This document shows positions 5,302 through 45,280 of a stretch of 64,000 bases of DNA, piece by piece. Origin of the DNA: Ostreococcus lucimarinus (Eukaryota); assembly GCA_000092065.1 (NCBI GenBank), contig CP000583.1. The stretch is one strand, 5' to 3'. How positions within the stretch are numbered: position 1 is the first letter of the stretch; each line of letters starts with the position of its first letter. The notes beneath the pieces were generated by a model. The model saw nothing but the letters and a program-made list of their open reading frames with translations, searched no databases and had not been told where the DNA came from. A program made the position numbers and the translations under genes.

Positions 5302-6252
5302 ATGACGCGCTTCGCGGCGGTCGAGCTCGCGCGCGGCGCGCGTTTCCGCGTCGCGTCTCGCGAGCGCGGCGCGCGACTCCGCCGTCGCGCGACGCCGACG
5401 CGCCTGACGCCGTTCCCGCGCGACTACGCCGAGCTCGAGCGACAGGCGCGCGAGAGCGTGAAACGATGCGCGAAAGATGGCGTCGAGCTCGTCGAGCTTC
5501 AGTTTCCACCCGGTGGATTGGAACTCGCGAGCGGGGATTTAGAGGGAAACGTCGAGTGTAATCTCACCACCGAGCGGCTGAGAGGGATATGCGATGCGTT
5601 CGTGGCGAACGGGACGGCGAGCACGACGCGCGTGCTGTTTCCGGATCCCACGGAGATGCGGTTGGCGACGACGGGGGCGAACGCGGCGCCGGACGGGATT
5701 CGAGCGCCGGAACAGAGCGACACGCGCGGGTGGTTCGCGGATTGGAAAGGAACGCTAGATTACGTGGATGATCCTAGTTTCATGTCGGTGAGTGGATTCG
5801 ATAAGATATTCGGTGGGAAGAAGAATATTTCAGAGCGGATGAGAGGAGACGAGACGGCGTACGTCGTCGCGTATCCGAGCGCAAATATTTCCGAGTTGGC
5901 GAATACGCGAGATTTGTACGAAGGGTGCGTGCGAGGAACGGGAAAGTCGCTCGTGGTGTGTAACGGCGAGTTGGAACGCACGCGGTCGAATTATTATCCG
6001 CCGTTTTGGAACGCCGGGGAGATGGGACCGTTGCGATCGTTTTGTCGAAAATTTGAAGGCGCGTACGTAATCTATAATTTCAAGGGATCCAATCCCGCCG
6101 TGCTGTTTCGCGTGTACCCGGAGCCGTGGCAGGTATTTCGTCGACGCAAGGGCGGCCGCGACGGGTTGGAGACGCTCGAGCGTGTGTGCACGTTTGAGAA
6201 GTTTGAATCCGTGAAATCCGTGGCGCTGGACGTCTTGCCGCGATACCCGTGA
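5302..6252 (+). CDS. Hypothetical protein (possibly organellar)
   Basis: ATG at 5302 (MTRFAAVELARG...), divergent from the coiled-coil gene that starts at 5235. The downstream 300 aa have normal composition (W/Y/F/N/K present). The upstream part of the ORF-track entry is an R-rich artefact. Confidence 0.5.
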   Translation: MTRFAAVELARGARFRVASRERGARLRRRATPTRLTPFPRDYAELERQARESVKRCAKDGVELVELQFPPGGLELASGDLEGNVECNLTTERLRGICDAFVANGTASTTRVLFPDPTEMRLATTGANAAPDGIRAPEQSDTRGWFADWKGTLDYVDDPSFMSVSGFDKIFGGKKNISERMRGDETAYVVAYPSANISELANTRDLYEGCVRGTGKSLVVCNGELERTRSNYYPPFWNAGEMGPLRSFCRKFEGAYVIYNFKGSNPAVLFRVYPEPWQVFRRRKGGRDGLETLERVCTFEKFESVKSVALDVLPRYP

Positions 6253-6390
6253 TAGCGCGTTGTAGTCTTACTGTCTTACTGAAATGATTCGTGAAACCGT
6301 TCGTGTTAGACGTCTCGGCGTCACGGTGCTCGGCGTCACGGTGCTCGTCGTTGTTGTCTATGTAGCTGTGATATCACACGAGGGAGGTGT

Positions 6391-8088
6391 CTAGTGCCTG
6401 TCGATGTCTTCCAAAATCACCTGGGTCGACGGCGCGAGACGACGAAGATATTTGAACACCCAGAATTTAAATAATACGTCCACGGAGACCGGCACGAAGG
6501 CAACGAAGAGCGAAATGAGTTCTTCTTGTTCCTTCACGCCGTAGTGACCGCCAATGCTACGCAAAAGCGTTTGCCACGCGTCGGCGGAGTGATAGCCGAC
6601 GAGGACGTCCGAGGAGAGCAATAAAATGAAAGCTTGTTGCGCGGGCTCGAGGCTAAAGAATGCGTTCTTCGTCCCAGTGACGACGACTTTGGCTTGATCA
6701 GAGTATACGACAACCATGATCAAGAAAGCAGAGATAAAAACCAAGTCTCCGTACCGGTTGCCTCCGACTTGGATGAAGTGATTGATTTCCTCATCCTCCA
6801 GACGTTGCGCCTCGTGTCGAATCTTTTCCTCCTTTTGAATCGACGTGAGCGGTGCCTCACGACCCATAAGGATGTCAAACTCCATGCGTTGTTGGTAACG
6901 GGTAAGCTTACCGAGAATCTCCGCCTCTTGATCGTCGCGCAGCTCTATCGTGGTCCTGTCCTCGCCCGCTAATTTCAGTTCTTGGCTCACGATGGGATCG
7001 ATGATGGTGAACGTGACAACTTTGGAGATCAAGCTCGGAATGACAAAGAAATTGAACATCCACTTCGCGGCTTCGGATTGCGCAAATTCTTTGACGGCTT
7101 CCGCGAACGATTGACTAAAGTTCGTCTCTTCCTGTTGCTCCGCATCGCCCCCTTCGTCGAATTCGTCTTCCCATTCGCCGGAGAAAAACGCGCTTCCCTT
7201 CTTCTTCGCCTCGACTCGCGCTTGCTGAAGAGCTTTGCGTTTTTCTTGCTCTAGTACGCGCTCTCGCTTCTTGCGCCTTCGCTCGAGCTCTTTTGCGATC
7301 CGTTTCGCGCGACGTTGGCGCTCCAGCGTCTCGAGCTCGTCCACATCGATCGCCGTCTGTCCTAGAATGGCGTCGAATAAATCCGGCGTTCTCGCCTTCA
7401 TCCCATCCAGCGCCGTGCCGTCCAAACGCGAGCTATCCCACGACATACTATCGCCCCATTCTCTCATCACCTTGTCCGCGTCCGTGACCTTGATTTTCGA
7501 CGAACTTTCCTCCTTCTTCTTCCGCTTCGTAAACGTCGCCAACGCGCCGCCGACGTCCACCCCCGTCCACTTCTTCGCCATCTTATTCGACCCGTCCTCC
7601 GCCGCCCGCCCGCTCGACGTCCCGCCGCTCGCATCGCTCTCCTCGCGCGCTAACTCGATCGCGTCTTCCCAATTCCGGTCCGACGCGTCCGCGTCCGCGT
7701 CCGCGTTCGCGCCCCCCTCCGCGGCGGCTTCCGCGTCGTCCCTCTGCGCGATCGCCCGCGGCGCCCTCGTCCCCATCCTCGCGCGCCACGACTCCCGTCG
7801 CGCGCGCGTCCCCGGCGTCACTCCATCGGCGTCCGTTCCGCGCCCTCGCGCGTCGCGCCTCCCGCCGCGCGTCGCCGTTCGAAGCGTCGTCGTCGTCGCC
7901 GACGTGGCCGTCCCTACCCGCGGCATCTTTCGCGCCTGTCGCTCGCGCTCGCGCGCGCGCGCGCTCGCGCGCGTCCGGTTCGACGGGCAAAGACGCGTTC
8001 GCGTCGCTCGCGCGGTCGCGGTGCGCGCGTCGCGCCGCGCGCGTCGCGGTGTGCGCGGGCGCGCGCGCGGTCGACGCGGGACGCACAC
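6391..8088 (-). CDS. Hypothetical membrane protein with a K/E-rich coiled-coil middle and a conserved hydrophobic C-terminal region. The N-terminus is uncertain and may start at an internal Met.
   Basis: The C-terminal 300 aa contain several hydrophobic segments (NFFVIPSLISKVVTFTIIDPI, DLVFISAFLIMVVVYSD, LFVAFVPVSVDVLFKFWVFKYLRRL). The N-terminal 150 aa are R/A-rich and may not be translated. Confidence 0.45.
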   Translation of the reverse strand: MCVPRRPRARPRTPRRARRDARTATARATRTRLCPSNRTRASARARERERQARKMPRVGTATSATTTTLRTATRGGRRDARGRGTDADGVTPGTRARRESWRARMGTRAPRAIAQRDDAEAAAEGGANADADADASDRNWEDAIELAREESDASGGTSSGRAAEDGSNKMAKKWTGVDVGGALATFTKRKKKEESSSKIKVTDADKVMREWGDSMSWDSSRLDGTALDGMKARTPDLFDAILGQTAIDVDELETLERQRRAKRIAKELERRRKKRERVLEQEKRKALQQARVEAKKKGSAFFSGEWEDEFDEGGDAEQQEETNFSQSFAEAVKEFAQSEAAKWMFNFFVIPSLISKVVTFTIIDPIVSQELKLAGEDRTTIELRDDQEAEILGKLTRYQQRMEFDILMGREAPLTSIQKEEKIRHEAQRLEDEEINHFIQVGGNRYGDLVFISAFLIMVVVYSDQAKVVVTGTKNAFFSLEPAQQAFILLLSSDVLVGYHSADAWQTLLRSIGGHYGVKEQEELISLFVAFVPVSVDVLFKFWVFKYLRRLAPSTQVILEDIDRH

Positions 8089-8208
8089 CCGCGTGCGGTG
8101 CCAGTGAGAAAACGAGGCGCATTCGCGCGCGCTTTGGTGGCCGCAGAGCGCGCCTCGCGACGCGCGGGACGCTCGAGGGCGCGCGCGCGCGAAGAAAAAA
8201 ATCCCATC

Positions 8209-10250
8209 ATGGTGCGACCGCGCGCCGCGGACGACGCGCGACGTCGCGAAGCGCCGCGCGAGACGCGTCGACTCGAAGACGCGCGCGGACTGACGACGAC
8301 GCGATCGACGCGCGAAATCGCGGTGTAGGTGGTGCTGTCGGCGGCGATCGTCACCAAGGGCGGTAAAGGTGCGTGGAGAAGATAACGATGCGTCGAACGG
8401 GACGCGCGGGGAGGCGCGGATGCGGTCGCGACGCGCGCGAGGGTGGGATTTCGAGACGAGGGCGGAACGGTCGAGATCAAAGCGAAAGAAGCTCGGTGAC
8501 GGAAGACTGACGGTGGTGACGCGCGTGCGATGATGATGTAGCGCTGGTGTCGAGGCAGTACGTGCAGATGACGCGCGTGCGCGTCGAAGGGTTGCTCGCG
8601 GCGTTTCCGAAACTCGTCGGAAGCGGGAAGCAACACACGTACGTGGAGACGGAAAACGTGCGGTACGTGTATCAGCCGCTCGAGTGCGGGACGATGTACT
8701 TGCTGCTGGTGACGACGAAGGGCAGTAATATCTTAGAGGATTTGGACGTGTTGCGGTTGCTGGCGAAGACGCTGCCGGAGTACACGCAAGGGCAGGTGGA
8801 TGAAGAGGGTGTGTCGTTCGCGGCGTTCGATTTGATCTTCGCGTTTGACGAGATCATCTCGCTCGGGTACAAGGAAAACGTAACGATGGCGCAGGTGAAG
8901 ACTTTCACAGAGATGAACTCGCACGAAGAAAAGCTGCACAAGATGATGATCCAGAGTAAGATCAACGACACGAAGGATGTCATGCGTCGCAAGGCTACGG
9001 AGATCGACAAGGTCAAGCACGAGATGCAGCAATCAGCGATGCAACGAAGCGGAGGTTACGGCGGCCCGAGCCGCGGATTCGGGGCGCGAGATTCGTTCGA
9101 TGCGCGCGGTGGTTTTGGTGGGCAAAGTGGCGGTTTCGGTGGCCAGCAGGGAGGTGGTTTTGGTGGGCAAGGCGGGTTCGGCGACGGCTCGAGCGGCAGC
9201 TTCGACGACGGACGCAACGACGAGTTTGGATACCTCGGCCGCGGCGGCGGCGGAAGTGGCTCGTTCGGTGACGACCACCCGACGAGTGGCGGGTTCAGAA
9301 CCAGGTACAGCGATGACGTGGGCGGATACGGTCAACAGAGCTCCCCGGGTATGCCCCAAAAGTCTCTCGCCGGGCCGAAGAAGGGCATGCAACTCGGTGG
9401 CAAGCCGAAGACGAACCAGTTCCTGGAGAGTTTGCGTGCCGAAGGCGAATCTGTGGACGCAGATTTCGGCATCGAACCTTCTCGACCTGAAATGCCCGTT
9501 GCGGCGGCGCCTGCGGCGGCGCCGACGGAGAGCGTGAGTCTGGTTGTGGAAGAAAAACTCAACGTCACCTTGAACCGCAACGGCGGATTGGAGCAAATGG
9601 ATTTGCAAGGCAACATGCTTCTCGAAGTGCGCAACGAAGACGACGCTCTCATTCGTGTCGTGACCAAGGCGGGTGAGAACGCTGGGTTTCAGTTCAAGAC
9701 GCACCCGAACATTGACAAGGCTCTGCACGCAAACGAGAAAATTTTAGGCTTGAAGGACCCCAACCGTCCGTTTCCGTGCGGCTCGGCGCTCGGCGTGTTG
9801 AAGTGGCGATTCTCCACTAAGGATGAATCTGCGCTGCCTCTCAGCATCAACTGCTGGCCGACGATCAACGGCGGAGAAACCGCGGTGAGCATCGAATACG
9901 AGGCGTCGGATGCGATGGATTTACAAAACGTCGTCATTTCCATCCCGTGCCCGCCGTGCCGAGACCCGCCCGCGGTGAACTCGTGCGACGGCGAATTCCG
10001 ATTCGACGCGCGCAACGGCGTCATGGAGTGGAATATCGAGCTCATCGACGACAGCAATCGAAACGGAAGCATGGAATTCGTCATTCCTGTGGCCGACACA
10101 GAAGCGTTCTTCCCCATCGACGTCCACTTTTCTTCCGCGAAGACGTTCTGCGATATCGAAGTCGCGAGCATCTCTCGCACGACGGATGGCGCCCCCGTGA
10201 CGTTTGGCGGTAGAACGATGATGCTCGTGGACTCGTACCAAGTCGTATAG
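8209..10250 (+). CDS. ARCN1: Coatomer (COPI) delta subunit. Proposed exons: 8209..8211 (ATG only), 8329..8368, 8542..10250.
   Basis: The main exon has a longin-like N-domain ([45 protein letters not shown]) and a mu-homology C-domain collinear with metazoan delta-COP. The upstream micro-exon [13 protein letters not shown] plus ATG restores the conserved [15 protein letters not shown] N-terminus. Introns are 8212..8328 and 8369..8541, each GT...AG with an ACTGAC branch motif about 35-40 nt from the 3' splice site. Confidence 0.8.
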
Positions 10251-10325
10251 ACGTGCGTTGTAATTGCATGAATAAATGAAAGAATCGCTACGCAGTATCT
10301 CTATGATTCTATTTGTCTACTGTAC

Positions 10326-18970: not shown

Positions 18971-21355
18971 TCATGGTGCGACGCGCGCGCGATCGATCCA
19001 AGCCTCGCGCGCGCGACGCGACCGCGCGCCGACGACGCGACCGGTGTCGAAAGATGAAGATCGAAGATCTCGACGAACGCGCGGTGATGACGAACGACTG
19101 ACGCGGTGTGACGCGACGCGAACGCCGAGCAGGGGTTCGGAGACGCGCAAGAAGACGTCACGGACGCCGAGGGAGCGCTGTTTCCGATATTCGTCGTGAG
19201 CATGCTCGGGACGTTTTTGATTCCGGCGACGATCGCGCGACTGGCGAGCGCGGCGACGAAGACGGAACGCGGGAGCGGAGAGGGGAAGGGTGACGCGGCG
19301 AGCTCGAAGAAGCAGACGCAGACGATATCGACGGAGATTAGTGACGTAGAGAGTGAATGGGGAAAGGCGGCGATGGCGTCGATGAAACGGCGTAAGATGA
19401 CGACTGGGAGGCGCGTGGGCGGATTGTTTCGAGGGACCAATTTGTGGTACACGCTCGGGTGGATCGTGATGATCGCGCTGTCCGTGTACATCACGAGAAC
19501 GCCGTTACAGGAGAAACGGTTCGATCCGTACGATATCTTGGACCTGCGCGTGGGGGCGAGCACGAAGGAAATTAAGAGCGCGTACAGAAAGTTGTCGCTC
19601 AAGTATCACCCAGACAAGAACCCGGATCCCGCGGCGGCGGTTTATTTCGCCGAGTCCATCGCGCCGGCGTACAAGACGCTGACGGACGATGTCGCGCGAG
19701 AGAACTACGAAAAGTACGGTCATCCTGATGGTAAACAGAGCACCAAGCTCGGCATCGCGTTGCCCGAGCAACTTTTTGGAAAGGGTGGCATGGCGCCGGT
19801 GATGCTCATCGTGCTCGTTGTCGGAGGTATCATGCTTCCGCTTTTCATCGCTATGTGTTCGATCCGTAAAATGAACAAATTTGGTGGAAACAACGTGCTC
19901 AAGCAGACACAGGTTAATTACGCGCGCATGTTAAAGCCGGTGCTCGCGCTCTCAAAGGTTCCGGAGACGCTCGCCGTGGCGCACGAATTCATCGAGACGC
20001 CGTTCCTCGATGGACAAGATGCGGCCGTAAGCCAGCTTCTCAAAGATTACAAGAACGAGTACGAATCGAAAGATCAAAAGCTCATGAAGCGGTTGCCGAC
20101 CATCATCAAAGCACACATGTTGATCCTTACTCAGACGTCCCGGCGTGCGGCTTCGCTTCCACCTGTGCTCTCCGCGGATGCTAAAAAATTGGTGCTCACC
20201 CTGCCTCGATTGATCGAAGAGTTGCTCAAGATCGCAGCGATGCCAATCAACCGCGCCGGTCATTCGTACGCGCGACCGCAGATCAGCGTCATGGAGTTTT
20301 ACCAATGCTTCACTCAAGGCGTGCCTCTTTCTTCGCGAAAGCGAGATGAAGACGGAAACGCGAGTTTGCTTCAGCTCCCACATTTCTCCACGGAAAACCT
20401 CAACGGTGTTGCAAAAAAGTGCAAATCCCTGCACGCGCTGATGAAATTATCGAGCGAGGATCGCAAAAAGCTGTTGATTGGCGCAAGATTTTCTGAGGCC
20501 GCGACGAAGGATGTCGAGCGTCAGCTCGCGGTGATCCCACGTGTGACGACTTTTGAGGCGAAAATATCTGTCGACGACGACGACGACACCATCATGGAAG
20601 GAGATTTTGTCACCGCGAAGCTCAAGATTAAAATTGGACGATCTGGTGGACCGCTAGGTGGCGCGTTGCCTCCGTTACCGTTTTGCGCCGCTGATCGTAC
20701 AGAGGGTTGGCGCGTGTTCGTGTACGATCAATCCACGAACACCCTCTTAGCTAGCTCGACGTTAAAGCAGCGCGATGTAGAGAAGGCTGAGCGCGGGGAT
20801 GAACCTTTGGATTTGTCTGTCCAGTTCGTCGGCTTGCCGAGCGGTATGTACAACGTGGGCGTGTCGCTGATGAGCGACTATTGGATTGGTGTCGACGCCA
20901 AGGTTTCGTGCATGATGAAGGTGCTGAAGCCCACCGCGACGAACGTGGCAGCGCGCGAAGCCAAGTCCGCATCGCGTTCGGACGTCACGAAACCGAACGC
21001 TGAAGTGGAGGAGGAAGAATCGAGCGAATCGGACTATAGCGATGACGACGAGGACGATTACAGCGATGAGGACTATCCTTCGGATGAAACGGGAACGTCG
21101 GAATCCGATGATGAAGCCCGGGCTAGAATTGACGCGATGCGACGTCCTGAACAGACCAAAAACACAGTAAAGGAAGGTGCGACCGCTGCAAAACCGGCGT
21201 CAGTGCCGCAGCGAAAGACATCGACATTTGGACAGAAGGCGGCAGCGGCACGTCCCTCGATTCCAGGGCAAGCGGTTGTCCAGCAGACGCCGGCCACGGA
21301 AAAACCGGTCGTCGCCGAGGAAGTAAAGCCGGATACTGTTGATAACGTAGACTAA
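18971..21355 (+). CDS. SEC63: Translocation protein Sec63 (J-domain plus Sec63/Brl domain). Proposed exons: 18971..18973 (ATG) and 19133..21355.
   Basis: J-domain DPYDILDLRVGASTKEIKSAYRKLSLKYHPDKNP, then GHPDGKQSTKLGIALP and LLQLPHFSTENL, collinear with metazoan SEC63. Conserved N-terminal TM (GALFPIFVVSMLGTFLIPAT) lies upstream of the first in-frame ATG at 19202 with no ATG before the stop at 19109. This implies an ATG-only 5' exon at 18971 with donor GTGCGAC and branch ACTGAC at 19096. The acceptor could instead be 19129 or 19132. Confidence 0.75.
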
Positions 21356-22293: not shown

Positions 22294-22745
22294 GTGCGTA
22301 GAATGTACGGACTGTTTACACATACGACCGGGACATTCGGACATTTGGTCACGTTCCGTGTGTACGCTCGTCACGACACCTCGCGCGCGCGCGTCGCCCG
22401 CGCCGTCTTTACGACGCGCGACGACAGGTGCGCCGGCGACGACGACCCGACGCGACGCGCGCGCGGCGAAGACGACGCGCATCGATCGTTCGACCGCGCT
22501 TCGACGGCCCGCGACGTCGCGCGCGACGCCGAGACGCGGTCGAACGCGCGCGCGGTCGATCGCGCGCGGGCGCGCGCGACGATCGCGTCGGACGGCTCGC
22601 GTGACGCGCGCGATCGCCGCGCGATGACGCGCGCGCGATGATGCTGTCGGGAAAATCATCGTTCGCGCGCGGTCGACGCGCGGGCGGTCGATCGCGCGCG
22701 GGTGATGGGTGAAGCGCGCGCGATGGGGAGGCGCGCAAAGCCCTA

Positions 22746-22821
22746 GTGAGAAGAGGGTTGACGCGACGGAGGCGGGAAGGGCGAGGGACTGACGAATGAC
22801 GCGCGCGTTCGAAAATCACAG
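22746..22821 (+). other. Putative 5'UTR intron of the RPL12 gene (GTGAGA...ACTGAC...cacAG), ending 4 nt before the ATG
   Basis: Donor-like GTGAGA at 22746. ACTGAC branch-like motif at 22787-22792. AG at 22820-22821. ATG at 22826. Confidence 0.3.
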
Positions 22822-22825
22822 AAAG

Positions 22826-23326
22826 ATGCCGCCTAAGTTCGACCCGAACTCCGTTTTGGAGATTTTCATGCGCGCCACCGGCGGTGAAGTCGGCGCTGCG
22901 TCTTCGCTCGCGCCGAAGATCGGTCCGCTCGGTTTGTCGCCGAAGAAGGTCGGGGAAGACATCGCGAAGGAAACCGCCAAGGACTGGAAGGGTTTGCGCG
23001 TGACGGTGAAGCTCACCGTGCAAAACCGTCAAGCGAAGGTGTCTGTCGTGCCGACGGCCTCCGCCTTAGTCATTAAAGCGCTCAAGGAGCCGTTCCAAGA
23101 CCGCAAAAAGGTCAAGGGTATCTTGCACACGGGCAACTGCTCTTTGGACGACATCATCGAAGTCGCGCGCACTATGCGCCCGAGGTCTTGCGCCAAGTCG
23201 CTCGCCGGTACCGTCAAAGAAATTCTCGGTACGGCCAAGTCTGTGGGCTGCACCGTCGAGGGCGAAGACCCGTCGGACGTGCAAGAATCGATCGATTCCG
23301 GGGACATTGAAATTCCGGAAAAGTAG
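22826..23326 (+). CDS. RPL12: 60S ribosomal protein L12 (uL11)
   Basis: [48 protein letters not shown]...[30 protein letters not shown] is near-identical to eukaryotic RPL12 throughout. Confidence 0.95.
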
Positions 23327-43822: not shown

Positions 43823-45280
43823 CTACTCGTAACCTTCGCCGATTTCGATGCCTGCGTCGATGAGTGCGTTCCCAGTCGCTTTCATTCGCGCGGCGAACTT
43901 GCACGCCGCGCGGAGCTTTGCCATGCGCAAACGCTTCAAAAGCTGCTTGGCGAGGTGCGCCACGCGAGGGTTGCGCGAGTTTTGCAAATAATCAACCACC
44001 TTAGTGCCGTCCTCGACAATCATGATGGACTGATTTCCGGGCGATAACATCAAGTTGGATAACGCGGTGATGGCGGCGGTTTCCGAGCGCACGTCCCCGG
44101 TCCGAGCGAGCTGAATGATCCATTTTAACGCCCCTTGCTTGCAAAAGCGCTCACCGTTTGGCTCGTACAGCGCTAATTCTGCGATCGCGAGCGCGGCGAA
44201 CCGCTTTACTTCCTGCTGCGGACTGCGCAACATGAAGATGCACGCCTGAATGGCGCCCGTTTTTCCGGCGAGCGCGCGCAAATCGAAATTCGACGCCAAA
44301 TTTTTCAACCCGAGCGCGGCGACTAATTGCATCTCCGCCATATCGATTCGTTCCGACGTGTTCATCGCAATCGTGCAAAACAACTGAATGGCGCGATACT
44401 TGACGAGCGTCTCGCGCAAATCCTTGTTGCGCGCCATGTGCGCGATGACGAGCGCCGCCGCCAGCTTCCGAGCCGGAATCTTATCTCTCGAGAGTTCGAA
44501 CAAAAAAGGCACGTAACCTTTTTTCTCCATCAAATTACTAAATTCGTCGTTCATCGCCAAACGCGCGATGGCGATGAGCGCCCACTTCTCCGTGTCCGTG
44601 TCGTCCGTCTTATCGACGAAGTCGAGAAAGTTTTTAATCAATTGCTCCGGCGCCTTCGCGCTCATCAGCGACGCCACCTCGGGATCATCCGCGATTCTCG
44701 CGAACGTCACCACGCAATTTCTTTTAACCCTCACCCCTAACCCCTTTTCCGTGATCAGCGCCGTCATGCTCTTATCCAGCCCCTCGTCGCTCGCTAAAAA
44801 CCGCGTATCGTCGTGATTCACCAGCGTCGTCAGCGCCCCGCTCGCCGCCACCGCGCGCTCTTTATCTTTCCCCTTGATCGTCGCCACGCACAGTTTAAAC
44901 ATCTCCTTCGTCGCCAGCGCCGTCGCGCAATCATCGTGCAGCGCCAGCGTCTGCACCAGCCCGAACGCCGCGATCTGCGCCTCTCGCTCCTTAAACTCGC
45001 ACAGCCGCGGCAGGCTCTCCCTCAGAAACGTCCCGCGCGTCCTGTGCGTCAGCTTCCCCCACGTCGTCTCCACCTCTCCCGCGATCGCCGCTCGAAGCGC
45101 GCGCATCTGTCGCAGCAAGCGTCGCATCTTCCCCGTCGATCGCTTCCATCCCGCGATGTCGTCCATCATCGCGTGCACCTTGGCGTCCGTCATCGCTTCG
45201 TCCACCGTCTCGCGCGCGCACGTCACGAACGCGATGAACGCGCGCACCGCGCGCACCATGCGACGCCGCGCCACGCGCAT
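43823..45280 (-). CDS. Armadillo/HEAT-type helical-repeat protein
   Basis: 485-aa ORF with recurring 40-aa helical units of the form L..L...L..NL (ALAIAELALYEPNGERFCKQGALKWIIQLAR...AAITALSNLMLSPGNQSIMI), typical of ARM repeats. Confidence 0.6.
   Translation of the reverse strand: MRVARRRMVRAVRAFIAFVTCARETVDEAMTDAKVHAMMDDIAGWKRSTGKMRRLLRQMRALRAAIAGEVETTWGKLTHRTRGTFLRESLPRLCEFKEREAQIAAFGLVQTLALHDDCATALATKEMFKLCVATIKGKDKERAVAASGALTTLVNHDDTRFLASDEGLDKSMTALITEKGLGVRVKRNCVVTFARIADDPEVASLMSAKAPEQLIKNFLDFVDKTDDTDTEKWALIAIARLAMNDEFSNLMEKKGYVPFLFELSRDKIPARKLAAALVIAHMARNKDLRETLVKYRAIQLFCTIAMNTSERIDMAEMQLVAALGLKNLASNFDLRALAGKTGAIQACIFMLRSPQQEVKRFAALAIAELALYEPNGERFCKQGALKWIIQLARTGDVRSETAAITALSNLMLSPGNQSIMIVEDGTKVVDYLQNSRNPRVAHLAKQLLKRLRMAKLRAACKFAARMKATGNALIDAGIEIGEGYE

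What the first reader, a model, noticed from the sequence alone, without database searches (positions are those of the whole stretch)
8209..8541. Intron placed directly after the start codon in delta-COP, leaving the ATG as a 3-nt exon
The main delta-COP exon lacks the conserved N-terminal 15 residues, and an in-frame stop at 8517 precedes it. The missing peptide [13 protein letters not shown](A) is encoded at 8329..8368 between two GT..AG intervals, but it is preceded in frame by TAG rather than ATG. The only route to Met is an ATG at 8209-8211 followed directly by GTGCGAC. Splicing 8212..8328 and 8369..8541 gives [33 protein letters not shown], collinear residue for residue with metazoan [33 protein letters not shown]. 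Both introns carry ACTGAC about 35-40 nt from the AG, a canonical CTRAY branch motif. An intron that separates the ATG from codon 2 is rare and easily mis-annotated.
Basis: partly seen in the sequence, partly recalled or inferred. Interest (0 to 1): 0.7.

Follow-up and report, generated by a model that had tools for sequence, protein, structure and literature searches.

The report
Start-codon intron in Ostreococcus delta-COP
The delta-COP gene of this tiny green alga really does have an intron directly after its ATG, followed by a 40-base mini-exon; assembled transcripts confirm it, but it belongs to a known class of intron, so its main value is correcting truncated database gene models.

Summary
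The observation and the interpretation are both correct. ATG 8209-8211 is followed by a GT..AG intron (8212-8328), a 40-nt exon (8329-8368), a second GT..AG intron (8369-8541) and the main exon (8542-10250).

- **Transcript evidence.** Three assembled contigs from three different samples are 100% identical to the window over the gene. They lack exactly those two intervals and encode the predicted 583-aa protein.
- **Conservation.** The same layout occurs in four other Ostreococcus lineages, two of which also have spliced contigs. It also occurs in two Micromonas-like contigs and in Klebsormidium nitens, whose NCBI model already includes it. A Bathycoccus-like contig keeps only intron 1, and Myrmecia bisecta keeps only intron 2. 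Both introns are therefore probably ancient in green plants.
- **Protein fit.** The spliced N-terminus aligns from residue 1 with solved delta-COP structures.
- **Database models.** The Ostreococcus gene models called on genomic contigs that I examined, including O. tauri CEF97336.1, start at Met24 or carry spurious N-termini.
- **Context.** Introns directly after the start codon are a described, over-represented class (Nielsen and Wernersson 2006). A second candidate, in Sec63, lies in the same window. The "rare" claim is overstated, and the "3-nt exon" is only the coding part of a longer first exon.

Verdict: a sound gene-model correction of modest biological novelty.

The parts
8170..8211 (+). 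Exon 1: 5'UTR (minimum extent seen in a transcript contig) plus the initiator ATG at 8209-8211. The context is cccatcATGG, with A at -3 and G at +4.
   Evidence: L008 matches 8170-8214 and L007 is contiguous further upstream. There is no ATG on the + strand in 7900-8208, so this is the first AUG for any nearby transcription start.
8212..8328 (+). Intron 1, the start-codon intron: phase 0, between codons 1 and 2. It is 117 nt, with donor GTGCGA, branch motif ACTGAC at 8289-8294 and acceptor TAG. If retained, the ATG frame stops at TAG 8326-8328 (codon 40).
   Evidence: Absent from L007, L008 and L009. Only the 8211/8329 placement gives GT..AG (inspection). Anatomy.
8329..8368 (+). Exon 2, a 40-nt microexon encoding [13 protein letters not shown] plus the first base of Ala15.
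   Evidence: Present at 100% identity in L007-L009. Mean pairwise identity among five Ostreococcus lineages is 90%, against 55-59% for the flanking introns.
8369..8541 (+). Intron 2: phase 1, inside the Ala15 codon (G|CG). It is 173 nt, with donor GTGCGT, branch motif ACTGAC at 8506-8511 and acceptor TAG. It contains the in-frame TGA at 8517-8519.
   Evidence: Absent from L007-L009. The same position is occupied in Ostreococcus, Micromonas-like, Klebsormidium and Myrmecia loci.
8542..10250 (+). Exon 3: the rest of the delta-COP CDS (residues 15-583), ending in stop TAG 10248-10250. Met24 at 8568-8570 is the start used by most database models.
   Evidence: Translation. Pfam PF00928 matches residues 342-582. 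The truncated 560-aa form is on 486 contigs.
10251..10288 (+). 3'UTR up to the probable mRNA 3' end. TGTAA lies at 10259-10263 and AATAAA at 10271-10276.
   Evidence: L008 ends at window position 10284 and L009 at 10288. Sequence.

Best explanation
This is the 5' end of the delta-COP (coatomer delta subunit, ARCN1/RET2 orthologue) gene of an Ostreococcus that is identical or nearly identical to O. lucimarinus CCE9901.

The gene has three exons. Exon 1 carries the 5'UTR and only the initiator ATG. A U2-type GT-AG intron of 117 nt follows at once, then a 40-nt exon, a 173-nt GT-AG intron, and a 1709-nt final exon.

Splicing joins ATG to GTG GTG CTG... and gives a 583-aa protein. Its first 23 residues form the conserved N-terminus of the longin domain.

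Shown here:
- both introns are removed precisely in assembled transcripts;
- the architecture is conserved from Mamiellales to a streptophyte alga.

Inferred here:
- Translation starts at this ATG. It is the first AUG, sits in a good Kozak context and restores residue-for-residue homology.
- The intron persists because cap-proximal introns are efficiently spliced and tend to raise expression (intron-mediated enhancement). ATG|G also approximates a proto-splice site.
- Unspliced intron 1 turns the AUG into a 39-codon dead-end ORF. Only spliced mRNA can therefore make full-length delta-COP.
For: - **Anatomy.** The coordinates and the 583-aa translation were verified.
- **Transcripts.** L007 (Logan SRR28369058), L008 (Logan SRR17229684) and L009 (JGI 3300023696) are 100% identical to the window across exon 2 and from 8540 on. 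L007 matches at 99.8% over the 2.9 kb upstream. All three lack exactly 8212-8328 and 8369-8541. L008 and L009 end at 10284 and 10288, just after AATAAA, as mRNA 3' ends would.
- **Predicted protein.** P0254 equals the predicted protein exactly.
- **Two more lineages.** Spliced and unspliced pairs exist in L010 versus L005 and in L011 versus L004.
- **Conservation within Ostreococcus.** ATG|GT(G/A)CG, the microexon and both introns are present in five Ostreococcus lineages. Intron lengths differ (107-159 nt and 173-303 nt) and a CTGAC motif sits 28-36 nt from each acceptor. Exon 2 is 90% identical and the introns 55-59%.
- **Wider conservation.** The same structure is found in Micromonas-like L012 and L015 and in Klebsormidium nitens L096, where the NCBI model starts MVVLGASVISKSGKALV.
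- **Initiation.** There is no upstream ATG in 7900-8208.
- **Protein homology.** The N-terminus aligns 1-175 to 1-172 of 5a1u_H and 5mu7_B, starting at residue 1.
- **Literature.** Start-codon introns are a known over-represented class (PMC1626468). In Yarrowia they are associated with high splicing efficiency and high expression (PMC13309789).
Against: - The RNA origin of L007-L009 is inferred from the precise loss of both introns, not from sample metadata. L007 also spans the divergent promoter and neighbouring genes, which is unusual for a single mRNA. It can be explained by merged overlapping transcripts in a compact genome.
- The first 303 nt of L008 do not match the window, so that contig is probably a chimera.
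- No protein-level evidence for the N-terminus exists here.
- Any functional role for the intron (expression enhancement, quality control) is untested.
- Delta-COP is not short or lysine-rich, unlike the typical proteins with start-codon introns described in PMC1626468.
Confidence: 0.95

Rival explanations
1. The gene has a single exon and translation starts at Met24 (ATG 8568-8570), as in most public models. The upstream microexon-like sequence would then be a coincidence or a relic.
For: The 560-aa form from 8568 is the form found on 486 contigs, with NCBI, MGnify, JGI and Tara among its sources. O. tauri CEF97336.1/XP_022838638.1 also starts [10 protein letters not shown].
Against: Most of those models sit on metagenome contigs called without intron modelling (an inference: some use GTG or TTG starts). 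Spliced contigs encode the longer protein. The microexon is conserved at 90% while the flanks are at 55-59%. Starting at Met24 would delete the first 23 residues of a domain that aligns from residue 1 with solved structures.
Confidence: 0.02
2. The intron-less contigs L007-L011 are genomic DNA from strains or retrocopies that have lost both introns, not spliced RNA. Splicing in this genome would then be unproven.
For: L007 is 5.7 kb long. It is collinear with the genome across intergenic DNA and genes on both strands. Sample types were not verified.
Against: Three different lineages would each need both an intron-containing and a precisely intron-less form with near-identical flanks. L008 and L009 end about 10 nt after AATAAA, like mRNAs. 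Even under this reading, precise loss of both introns implies reverse transcription of a spliced mRNA, which still proves the junctions.
Confidence: 0.02
3. A substantial share of transcripts retain intron 1. They then either initiate at the non-AUG GTG at 8329 or serve as non-productive, uORF-like regulated isoforms. On this reading the start-codon intron is a regulatory switch rather than a constitutive intron.
For: P0250 (582 aa, starts MVLSAAIV..., Logan, 4 contigs) is a call that begins at GTG 8329 with intron 2 removed but no ATG fused. That fits intron-1-retaining or 5'-truncated transcripts. Retention gives a 39-codon ORF ending at TAG 8326.
Against: The consequence of retention is not conserved: the stop falls at codon 8 to 70 in the five Ostreococcus lineages and codon 31 in the Bathycoccus-like locus, and there is none within the intron in the Micromonas-like loci. 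No quantitative data are available.
Confidence: 0.05

Closest known systems
Start-codon introns: phase-0 introns between codons 1 and 2 (Nielsen and Wernersson 2006, BMC Genomics 7:256, PMC1626468; first noted for human ribosomal protein genes)
   Same: The intron lies exactly between ATG and codon 2, in a protein without a signal peptide. ATG|G resembles a proto-splice site. The position is evolutionarily conserved.
   Different: [quoted passage not shown] Typical members are short, lysine-rich and often ribosomal, whereas delta-COP is a 583-aa coat subunit.
Klebsormidium nitens delta-COP gene (GCA_000708835.1, DF237861.1; protein P0093)
   Same: Identical architecture: ATG|GTGAGT intron, a 40-nt exon encoding VVLGASVISKSGK plus G, a phase-1 intron, then ALVLRNYVEM.... 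The public model already annotates it.
   Different: It is a streptophyte alga with longer AT-richer introns (about 165 and 780 nt) and many further introns. Ostreococcus retains only these two.
Yarrowia lipolytica TEF intron and other introns at the start codon (PMC13309789)
   Same: The 5' splice site lies directly after the start codon. In Yarrowia this class is associated with the highest splicing efficiency and expression, which offers a plausible reason for retention.
   Different: It is a fungal system with an ACTAAC branch point next to the 3' splice site. The expression effect has been tested there and not here.
Public delta-COP models for Ostreococcus, for example O. tauri CEF97336.1 / XP_022838638.1 (553 aa)
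   Same: Same gene and orthologous locus, with the same neighbours: DUF1995, CemA and TFIIE-beta.
   Different: The models start at Met24 or at spurious upstream codons and lack residues 1-23. In the O. tauri reference assembly an N-gap and divergent sequence replace the ATG exon region that is present in O. tauri-like contigs L001 and L003.

Membership tests
Start-codon intron (phase-0 intron between codon 1 and codon 2) | The 5' splice site lies immediately after the G of the initiator ATG, with canonical GT..AG ends. | tested here: met
   ATG 8209-8211 | GTGCGA ... TAG 8326-8328. Only this register gives GT-AG.
Start-codon intron (phase-0 intron between codon 1 and codon 2) | The intron is actually removed from the mRNA at that junction. 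| tested here: met
   L007, L008 and L009 lack 8212-8328. The same holds in two other lineages, L010 and L011.
Start-codon intron (phase-0 intron between codon 1 and codon 2) | The ATG before the intron is the codon used for initiation. | tested here: inconclusive
   Supported indirectly. There is no upstream ATG in 7900-8208, A is at -3 and G at +4, and homology starts at residue 1. Direct proof needs ribosome profiling or N-terminal proteomics.
U2-type spliceosomal intron | GT-AG termini with a CTRAY branch motif upstream of the acceptor. | tested here: met
   ACTGAC lies 35 and 31 nt before the 3' ends. A CTGAC sits 28-36 nt from both acceptors in all five Ostreococcus lineages, and a CTGAC or CTCAC motif at a similar distance in the Micromonas-like loci.
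Coatomer delta subunit (delta-COP / ARCN1 / RET2) | An N-terminal longin domain and a C-terminal mu-homology domain, collinear with characterised delta-COP. | tested here: met
   PF00928 matches residues 342-582 at E=2e-38. Residues 1-175 align to 1-172 of 5a1u_H at E=1e-63 and to 5mu7_B. The top named hit is O. tauri coatomer delta subunit.
Introner elements (repeated, mobile intron families, as in Micromonas) | The intron sequence recurs as a repeat family in other introns of the genome. | tested here: not met
   BLAST of both introns against the 64-kb window gives only short CG-rich low-complexity matches of 72-92% identity. Orthologous introns are at conserved positions but diverged in sequence. 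Only this window was searched, not the whole genome.

The most novel reading that the evidence does not exclude
The start-codon intron and the 40-nt microexon may be an architecture about a billion years old, shared across green plants. It has survived the massive intron loss of the Mamiellales because it is functional. One possibility is that it drives delta-COP expression through intron-mediated enhancement. Another is that it acts as a splicing-dependent gate: unspliced mRNA offers only a dead-end 39-codon ORF, which would couple coatomer dosage to splicing. With the second candidate in Sec63, it would point to systematic retention of start-codon introns in secretory-pathway genes of minimal green algae.
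Probability: 0.12. Interest if true: 0.45.

Novelty: new member of a known kind. Interest (0 to 1): 0.25.

Why it matters
**Annotation.** The Ostreococcus delta-COP models called on genomic contigs that I examined lack the first 23 residues or replace them with spurious sequence. This includes the O. tauri reference protein and the form present on 486 contigs. The missing residues are the conserved start of the longin domain. Gene callers that do not model introns, or that need a longer first coding exon, will repeat this error wherever an intron follows the ATG. The same window holds a second likely case in Sec63, whose O. lucimarinus model is flagged partial.

**Evolution.** The two intron positions are shared between Mamiellales and a streptophyte alga. 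They are therefore rare survivors in genomes that have lost most introns, which makes them usable markers for studies of intron loss.

**Limits.** The finding does not reveal a new mechanism.

Tried and rejected
1. **A third ATG|GTGCG site at 45259 (- strand).** Rejected. The 240-nt "intron" is a multiple of 3 and the frame stays open for 91 codons upstream of the putative acceptor, so it is ordinary coding sequence.
2. **Transcript proof for the Sec63 start-codon intron.** The exact predicted 742-aa protein is not in the collection. An exact junction pattern found nothing in metagenome contigs. Only comparative support was obtained.
3. **Rfam scan of 7900-8650 for an intron-hosted RNA.** No match at E<=1.
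4. **Introner or repeat origin of the introns.** Only CG-rich low-complexity similarity was found.
5. **O. tauri reference locus L002.** No ATG|GT was found upstream because of an N-gap and divergent sequence. O. tauri-like contigs L001 and L003 do have it.
6. **Ostreococcus-specific literature on start-codon introns.** None found. The 2026 O. tauri T2T preprint discusses start codons only in the context of annotation repair and methylation.

Full report
**What is in the sequence.**

- ATG 8209-8211 sits in the context cccatcATGG and is followed directly by GTGCGAC.
- The interval 8212-8328 (117 nt) ends in TAG.
- 8329-8368 reads GTG GTG CTG TCG GCG GCG ATC GTC ACC AAG GGC GGT AAA G. This encodes [13 protein letters not shown] plus one base.
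- 8369-8541 (173 nt) starts GTGCGT and ends TAG.
- 8542 onwards continues CG CTG GTG TCG AGG CAG..., giving [10 protein letters not shown]...
- Joining the three pieces gives a 1752-nt CDS and a 583-aa protein that ends at TAG 10248-10250.
- The in-frame TGA at 8517-8519 and the TAG just before exon 2 are both present.
- ACTGAC lies at 8289-8294 and 8506-8511, which puts the branch adenosine 35 and 31 nt from each intron's 3' end.
- If intron 1 is retained, the ATG frame stops at codon 40, the TAG at 8326-8328.
- No ATG occurs on the + strand anywhere in 7900-8208. ATG 8209 is therefore the first AUG for any plausible transcription start.

**Organism and gene.**

The spliced protein is a coatomer delta subunit.

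- Pfam PF00928 (the mu-homology domain) matches residues 342-582.
- Residues 1-175 align with residues 1-172 of mammalian delta-COP (5a1u_H, E=1e-63) and of Chaetomium delta-COP (5mu7_B). Both alignments begin at residue 1.
- The nearest named protein is O. tauri coatomer delta subunit, at 79% identity.
- The neighbouring Sec63 gene in the window differs by one residue from O. lucimarinus CCE9901 XP_001416787.1 over the aligned residues. The window is therefore O. lucimarinus or a near-identical strain.

**Direct evidence for splicing.**

Cluster members of the closest database protein include P0254, a 583-aa sequence identical to the predicted spliced product. Its three encoding contigs are L007 (Logan SRR28369058), L008 (Logan SRR17229684) and L009 (JGI 3300023696).

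- Each contig matches the window at 100% identity across exon 2 and from 8540 onwards. L007 matches at 99.8% over the 2.9 kb upstream (5333-8214), and L008 at 100% over 8170-8214.
- Each contig skips exactly 8212-8328 and 8369-8541.
- GTG follows both the ATG and the acceptor, so the first junction can be slid by up to 3-4 nt in an alignment. Only the 8211/8329 register has GT..AG ends (inspection).
- L008 and L009 end at window positions 10284 and 10288, about 10 nt after AATAAA (10271-10276), as mRNA 3' ends would.

I infer from this that the contigs are transcript assemblies. I could not check the sample metadata.

**Comparative evidence.**

Orthologous genomic contigs from four other Ostreococcus lineages were examined: L005, L006, L004 and the O. 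tauri-like L001/L003. All of them carry:

- ATG|GT(G/A)CG;
- an intron of 107-159 nt;
- the 40-nt exon, encoding VVLAAA(I/V)VTKGGK;
- a second intron of 205-303 nt;
- a CTGAC 28-36 nt before each acceptor.

Mean pairwise identity among the five lineages is 90% in the microexon and 87% in the first 120 nt of exon 3. It is only 59% in intron 1, 55% in intron 2 and 56% in the upstream 100 nt. That is the pattern expected of a coding exon between two introns.

Two of these lineages also have spliced contigs with the same junctions: L010 against L005, and L011 against L004.

Beyond the genus, the picture is as follows.

| Locus | Intron 1 (after ATG) | Intron 2 (in Ala15 codon) |
|---|---|---|
| Micromonas-like L012 and L015 | present | present |
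| Bathycoccus-like L013 | present | absent |
| Klebsormidium nitens L096 (streptophyte alga) | present | present |
| Myrmecia bisecta L097 (trebouxiophyte) | absent | present |

The genus labels for L012, L013 and L015 are inferred from GC content, about 58-60% protein identity and shared gene neighbours. In Klebsormidium the layout is ATG | intron | 40-nt exon | intron, and the NCBI model already starts MVVLGASVISKSGKALV. The simplest reading is that both intron positions predate the split between chlorophytes and streptophytes and were lost independently in some lines.

**State of the public annotation.**

The Ostreococcus delta-COP models that I examined on genomic contigs either start at Met24 ([10 protein letters not shown]...) or carry spurious N-termini read out of intron 2. 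Examples of the latter are MVRACSSVAAMVSRQ, MELFSRFAALVSRQ and MRNETTDRGAGNDFRSRAALVSRQ.

- The Met24 group includes O. tauri CEF97336.1/XP_022838638.1.
- The truncated 560-aa translation of this window is on 486 contigs, with NCBI, MGnify, JGI and Tara among its sources.
- In the O. tauri reference assembly GCA_000214015.2, an N-gap and divergent sequence lie where O. tauri-like contigs carry the ATG exon.

"Easily mis-annotated" is therefore correct.

**How it most likely works.**

- *Shown.* These are two constitutive-looking U2-type introns that are removed precisely, and the resulting mRNA encodes a full-length delta-COP.
- *Inferred.* Initiation is at AUG 8209. It is the first AUG, with A at -3, and G at +4 both before and after splicing because exon 2 also starts with G.
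- *Inferred from established knowledge and the cited papers.* ATG|G approximates the (A/C)AG|G proto-splice site. Start-codon introns form a sharp, conserved peak in vertebrates, arthropods, fungi and plants (PMC1626468). In Yarrowia, introns at the start codon are associated with the highest splicing efficiency and expression (PMC13309789).

Retention of this intron in an otherwise intron-poor genome is compatible with an expression or quality-control role. Nothing here tests that. A member of the same protein cluster, P0250 (MVLSAAIV..., 582 aa), hints at transcripts with intron 2 removed but no ATG fused. I could not fetch its contigs.

**How unusual is it?**

It is not very unusual.

- The class is already described (PMC1626468).
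- A scan of this window for ATG|GT followed by a branch motif, an acceptor and a long ORF with a closed upstream frame returns exactly two sites: delta-COP and Sec63.
- In Sec63, ATG 18973-18975 is followed by GTGCGAC, a 154 or 157-nt intron with GACTGAC, and an NAGNAG acceptor (gagcag). The ORF then continues as (Q)GFGDAQEDVTDAEGALFPIFVV..., which restores the N-terminal transmembrane segment.
- A second Ostreococcus lineage (L016) has ATG|GTGCGT, a diverged intron and cag|GGGTTCGGT at the same place. Micromonas-like contigs encode MVQSDPTDAHGNLFPIF without an intron.
- I obtained no transcript proof for Sec63.

**Verdict.**

It is a worthwhile gene-model correction and a neat example of an anciently conserved start-codon intron and microexon. 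It is also a new instance of a known kind of feature, already annotated correctly in at least one green alga, so I score its interest as low to moderate.

Noticed in passing
window 18973-19133 (+): Second probable start-codon intron, in the Sec63/ERdj2-like gene. ATG 18973-18975 is followed by GTGCGAC, a 154 or 157-nt intron (GACTGAC branch motif, NAGNAG acceptor gagcag), then (Q)GFGDAQEDVTDAEGALFPIFVV... It is conserved in another Ostreococcus contig (L016) and absent in Micromonas-like L017 and L018. Public models start at Met or GTG inside the first transmembrane helix, or are flagged partial (XP_001416787.1). No transcript proof was obtained.
   Followed up: partly
L002 (O. tauri GCA_000214015.2, CAID01000003.2) about 2417-2700, compared with L001 and L003: The O. 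tauri reference assembly has a 20-N gap and about 290 bp of sequence unrelated to O. tauri-like metagenome and SRA contigs, just upstream of the delta-COP microexon. The ATG exon and most of intron 1 are missing there. This is probably a local misassembly, and it makes the correct gene model impossible on that reference.
   Followed up: partly
window 22428-22830 (+): The ribosomal protein L12 (uL11) gene starts at ATG 22827 ([10 protein letters not shown]...). It is preceded by ACTGAC (22788-22793) and cacAG (ending at 22820) only 6 nt upstream of the ATG. A possible donor, AG|GTGCGC, lies near 22428. This suggests a 5'UTR intron ending just before the start codon. The mechanical ORF call extends it to [10 protein letters not shown].
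   Followed up: no
L008 1-303: The first 303 nt of this Logan contig do not match the window. They join the delta-COP 5'UTR at window position 8170 with no splice-site signature. The contig is probably an assembly chimera, so the true transcription start is not defined by it.
   Followed up: partly
protein P0250 (cluster of P0001; Logan, 4 contigs): A 582-aa call starting MVLSAAIV uses GTG 8329 as its start, with intron 2 spliced out. It implies contigs with intron 2 removed but no ATG fused, from either intron-1 retention or 5'-truncated transcripts.
   Followed up: no
window 7927-8208 and non-coding stretches generally: Intergenic and intronic DNA is dominated by CG-rich low-complexity sequence (gcgcgcg and cgacgcg runs). 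This produces many weak BLAST matches between unrelated introns and promoters, and could mimic repeat families.
   Followed up: partly
L013 about 2260-2300 (Bathycoccus-like intron 1): The 390-nt start-codon intron of the Bathycoccus-like orthologue contains (GAA)n and (TA)n simple repeats. It is more than twice as long as the Ostreococcus and Micromonas-like introns. This lineage has lost intron 2.
   Followed up: no
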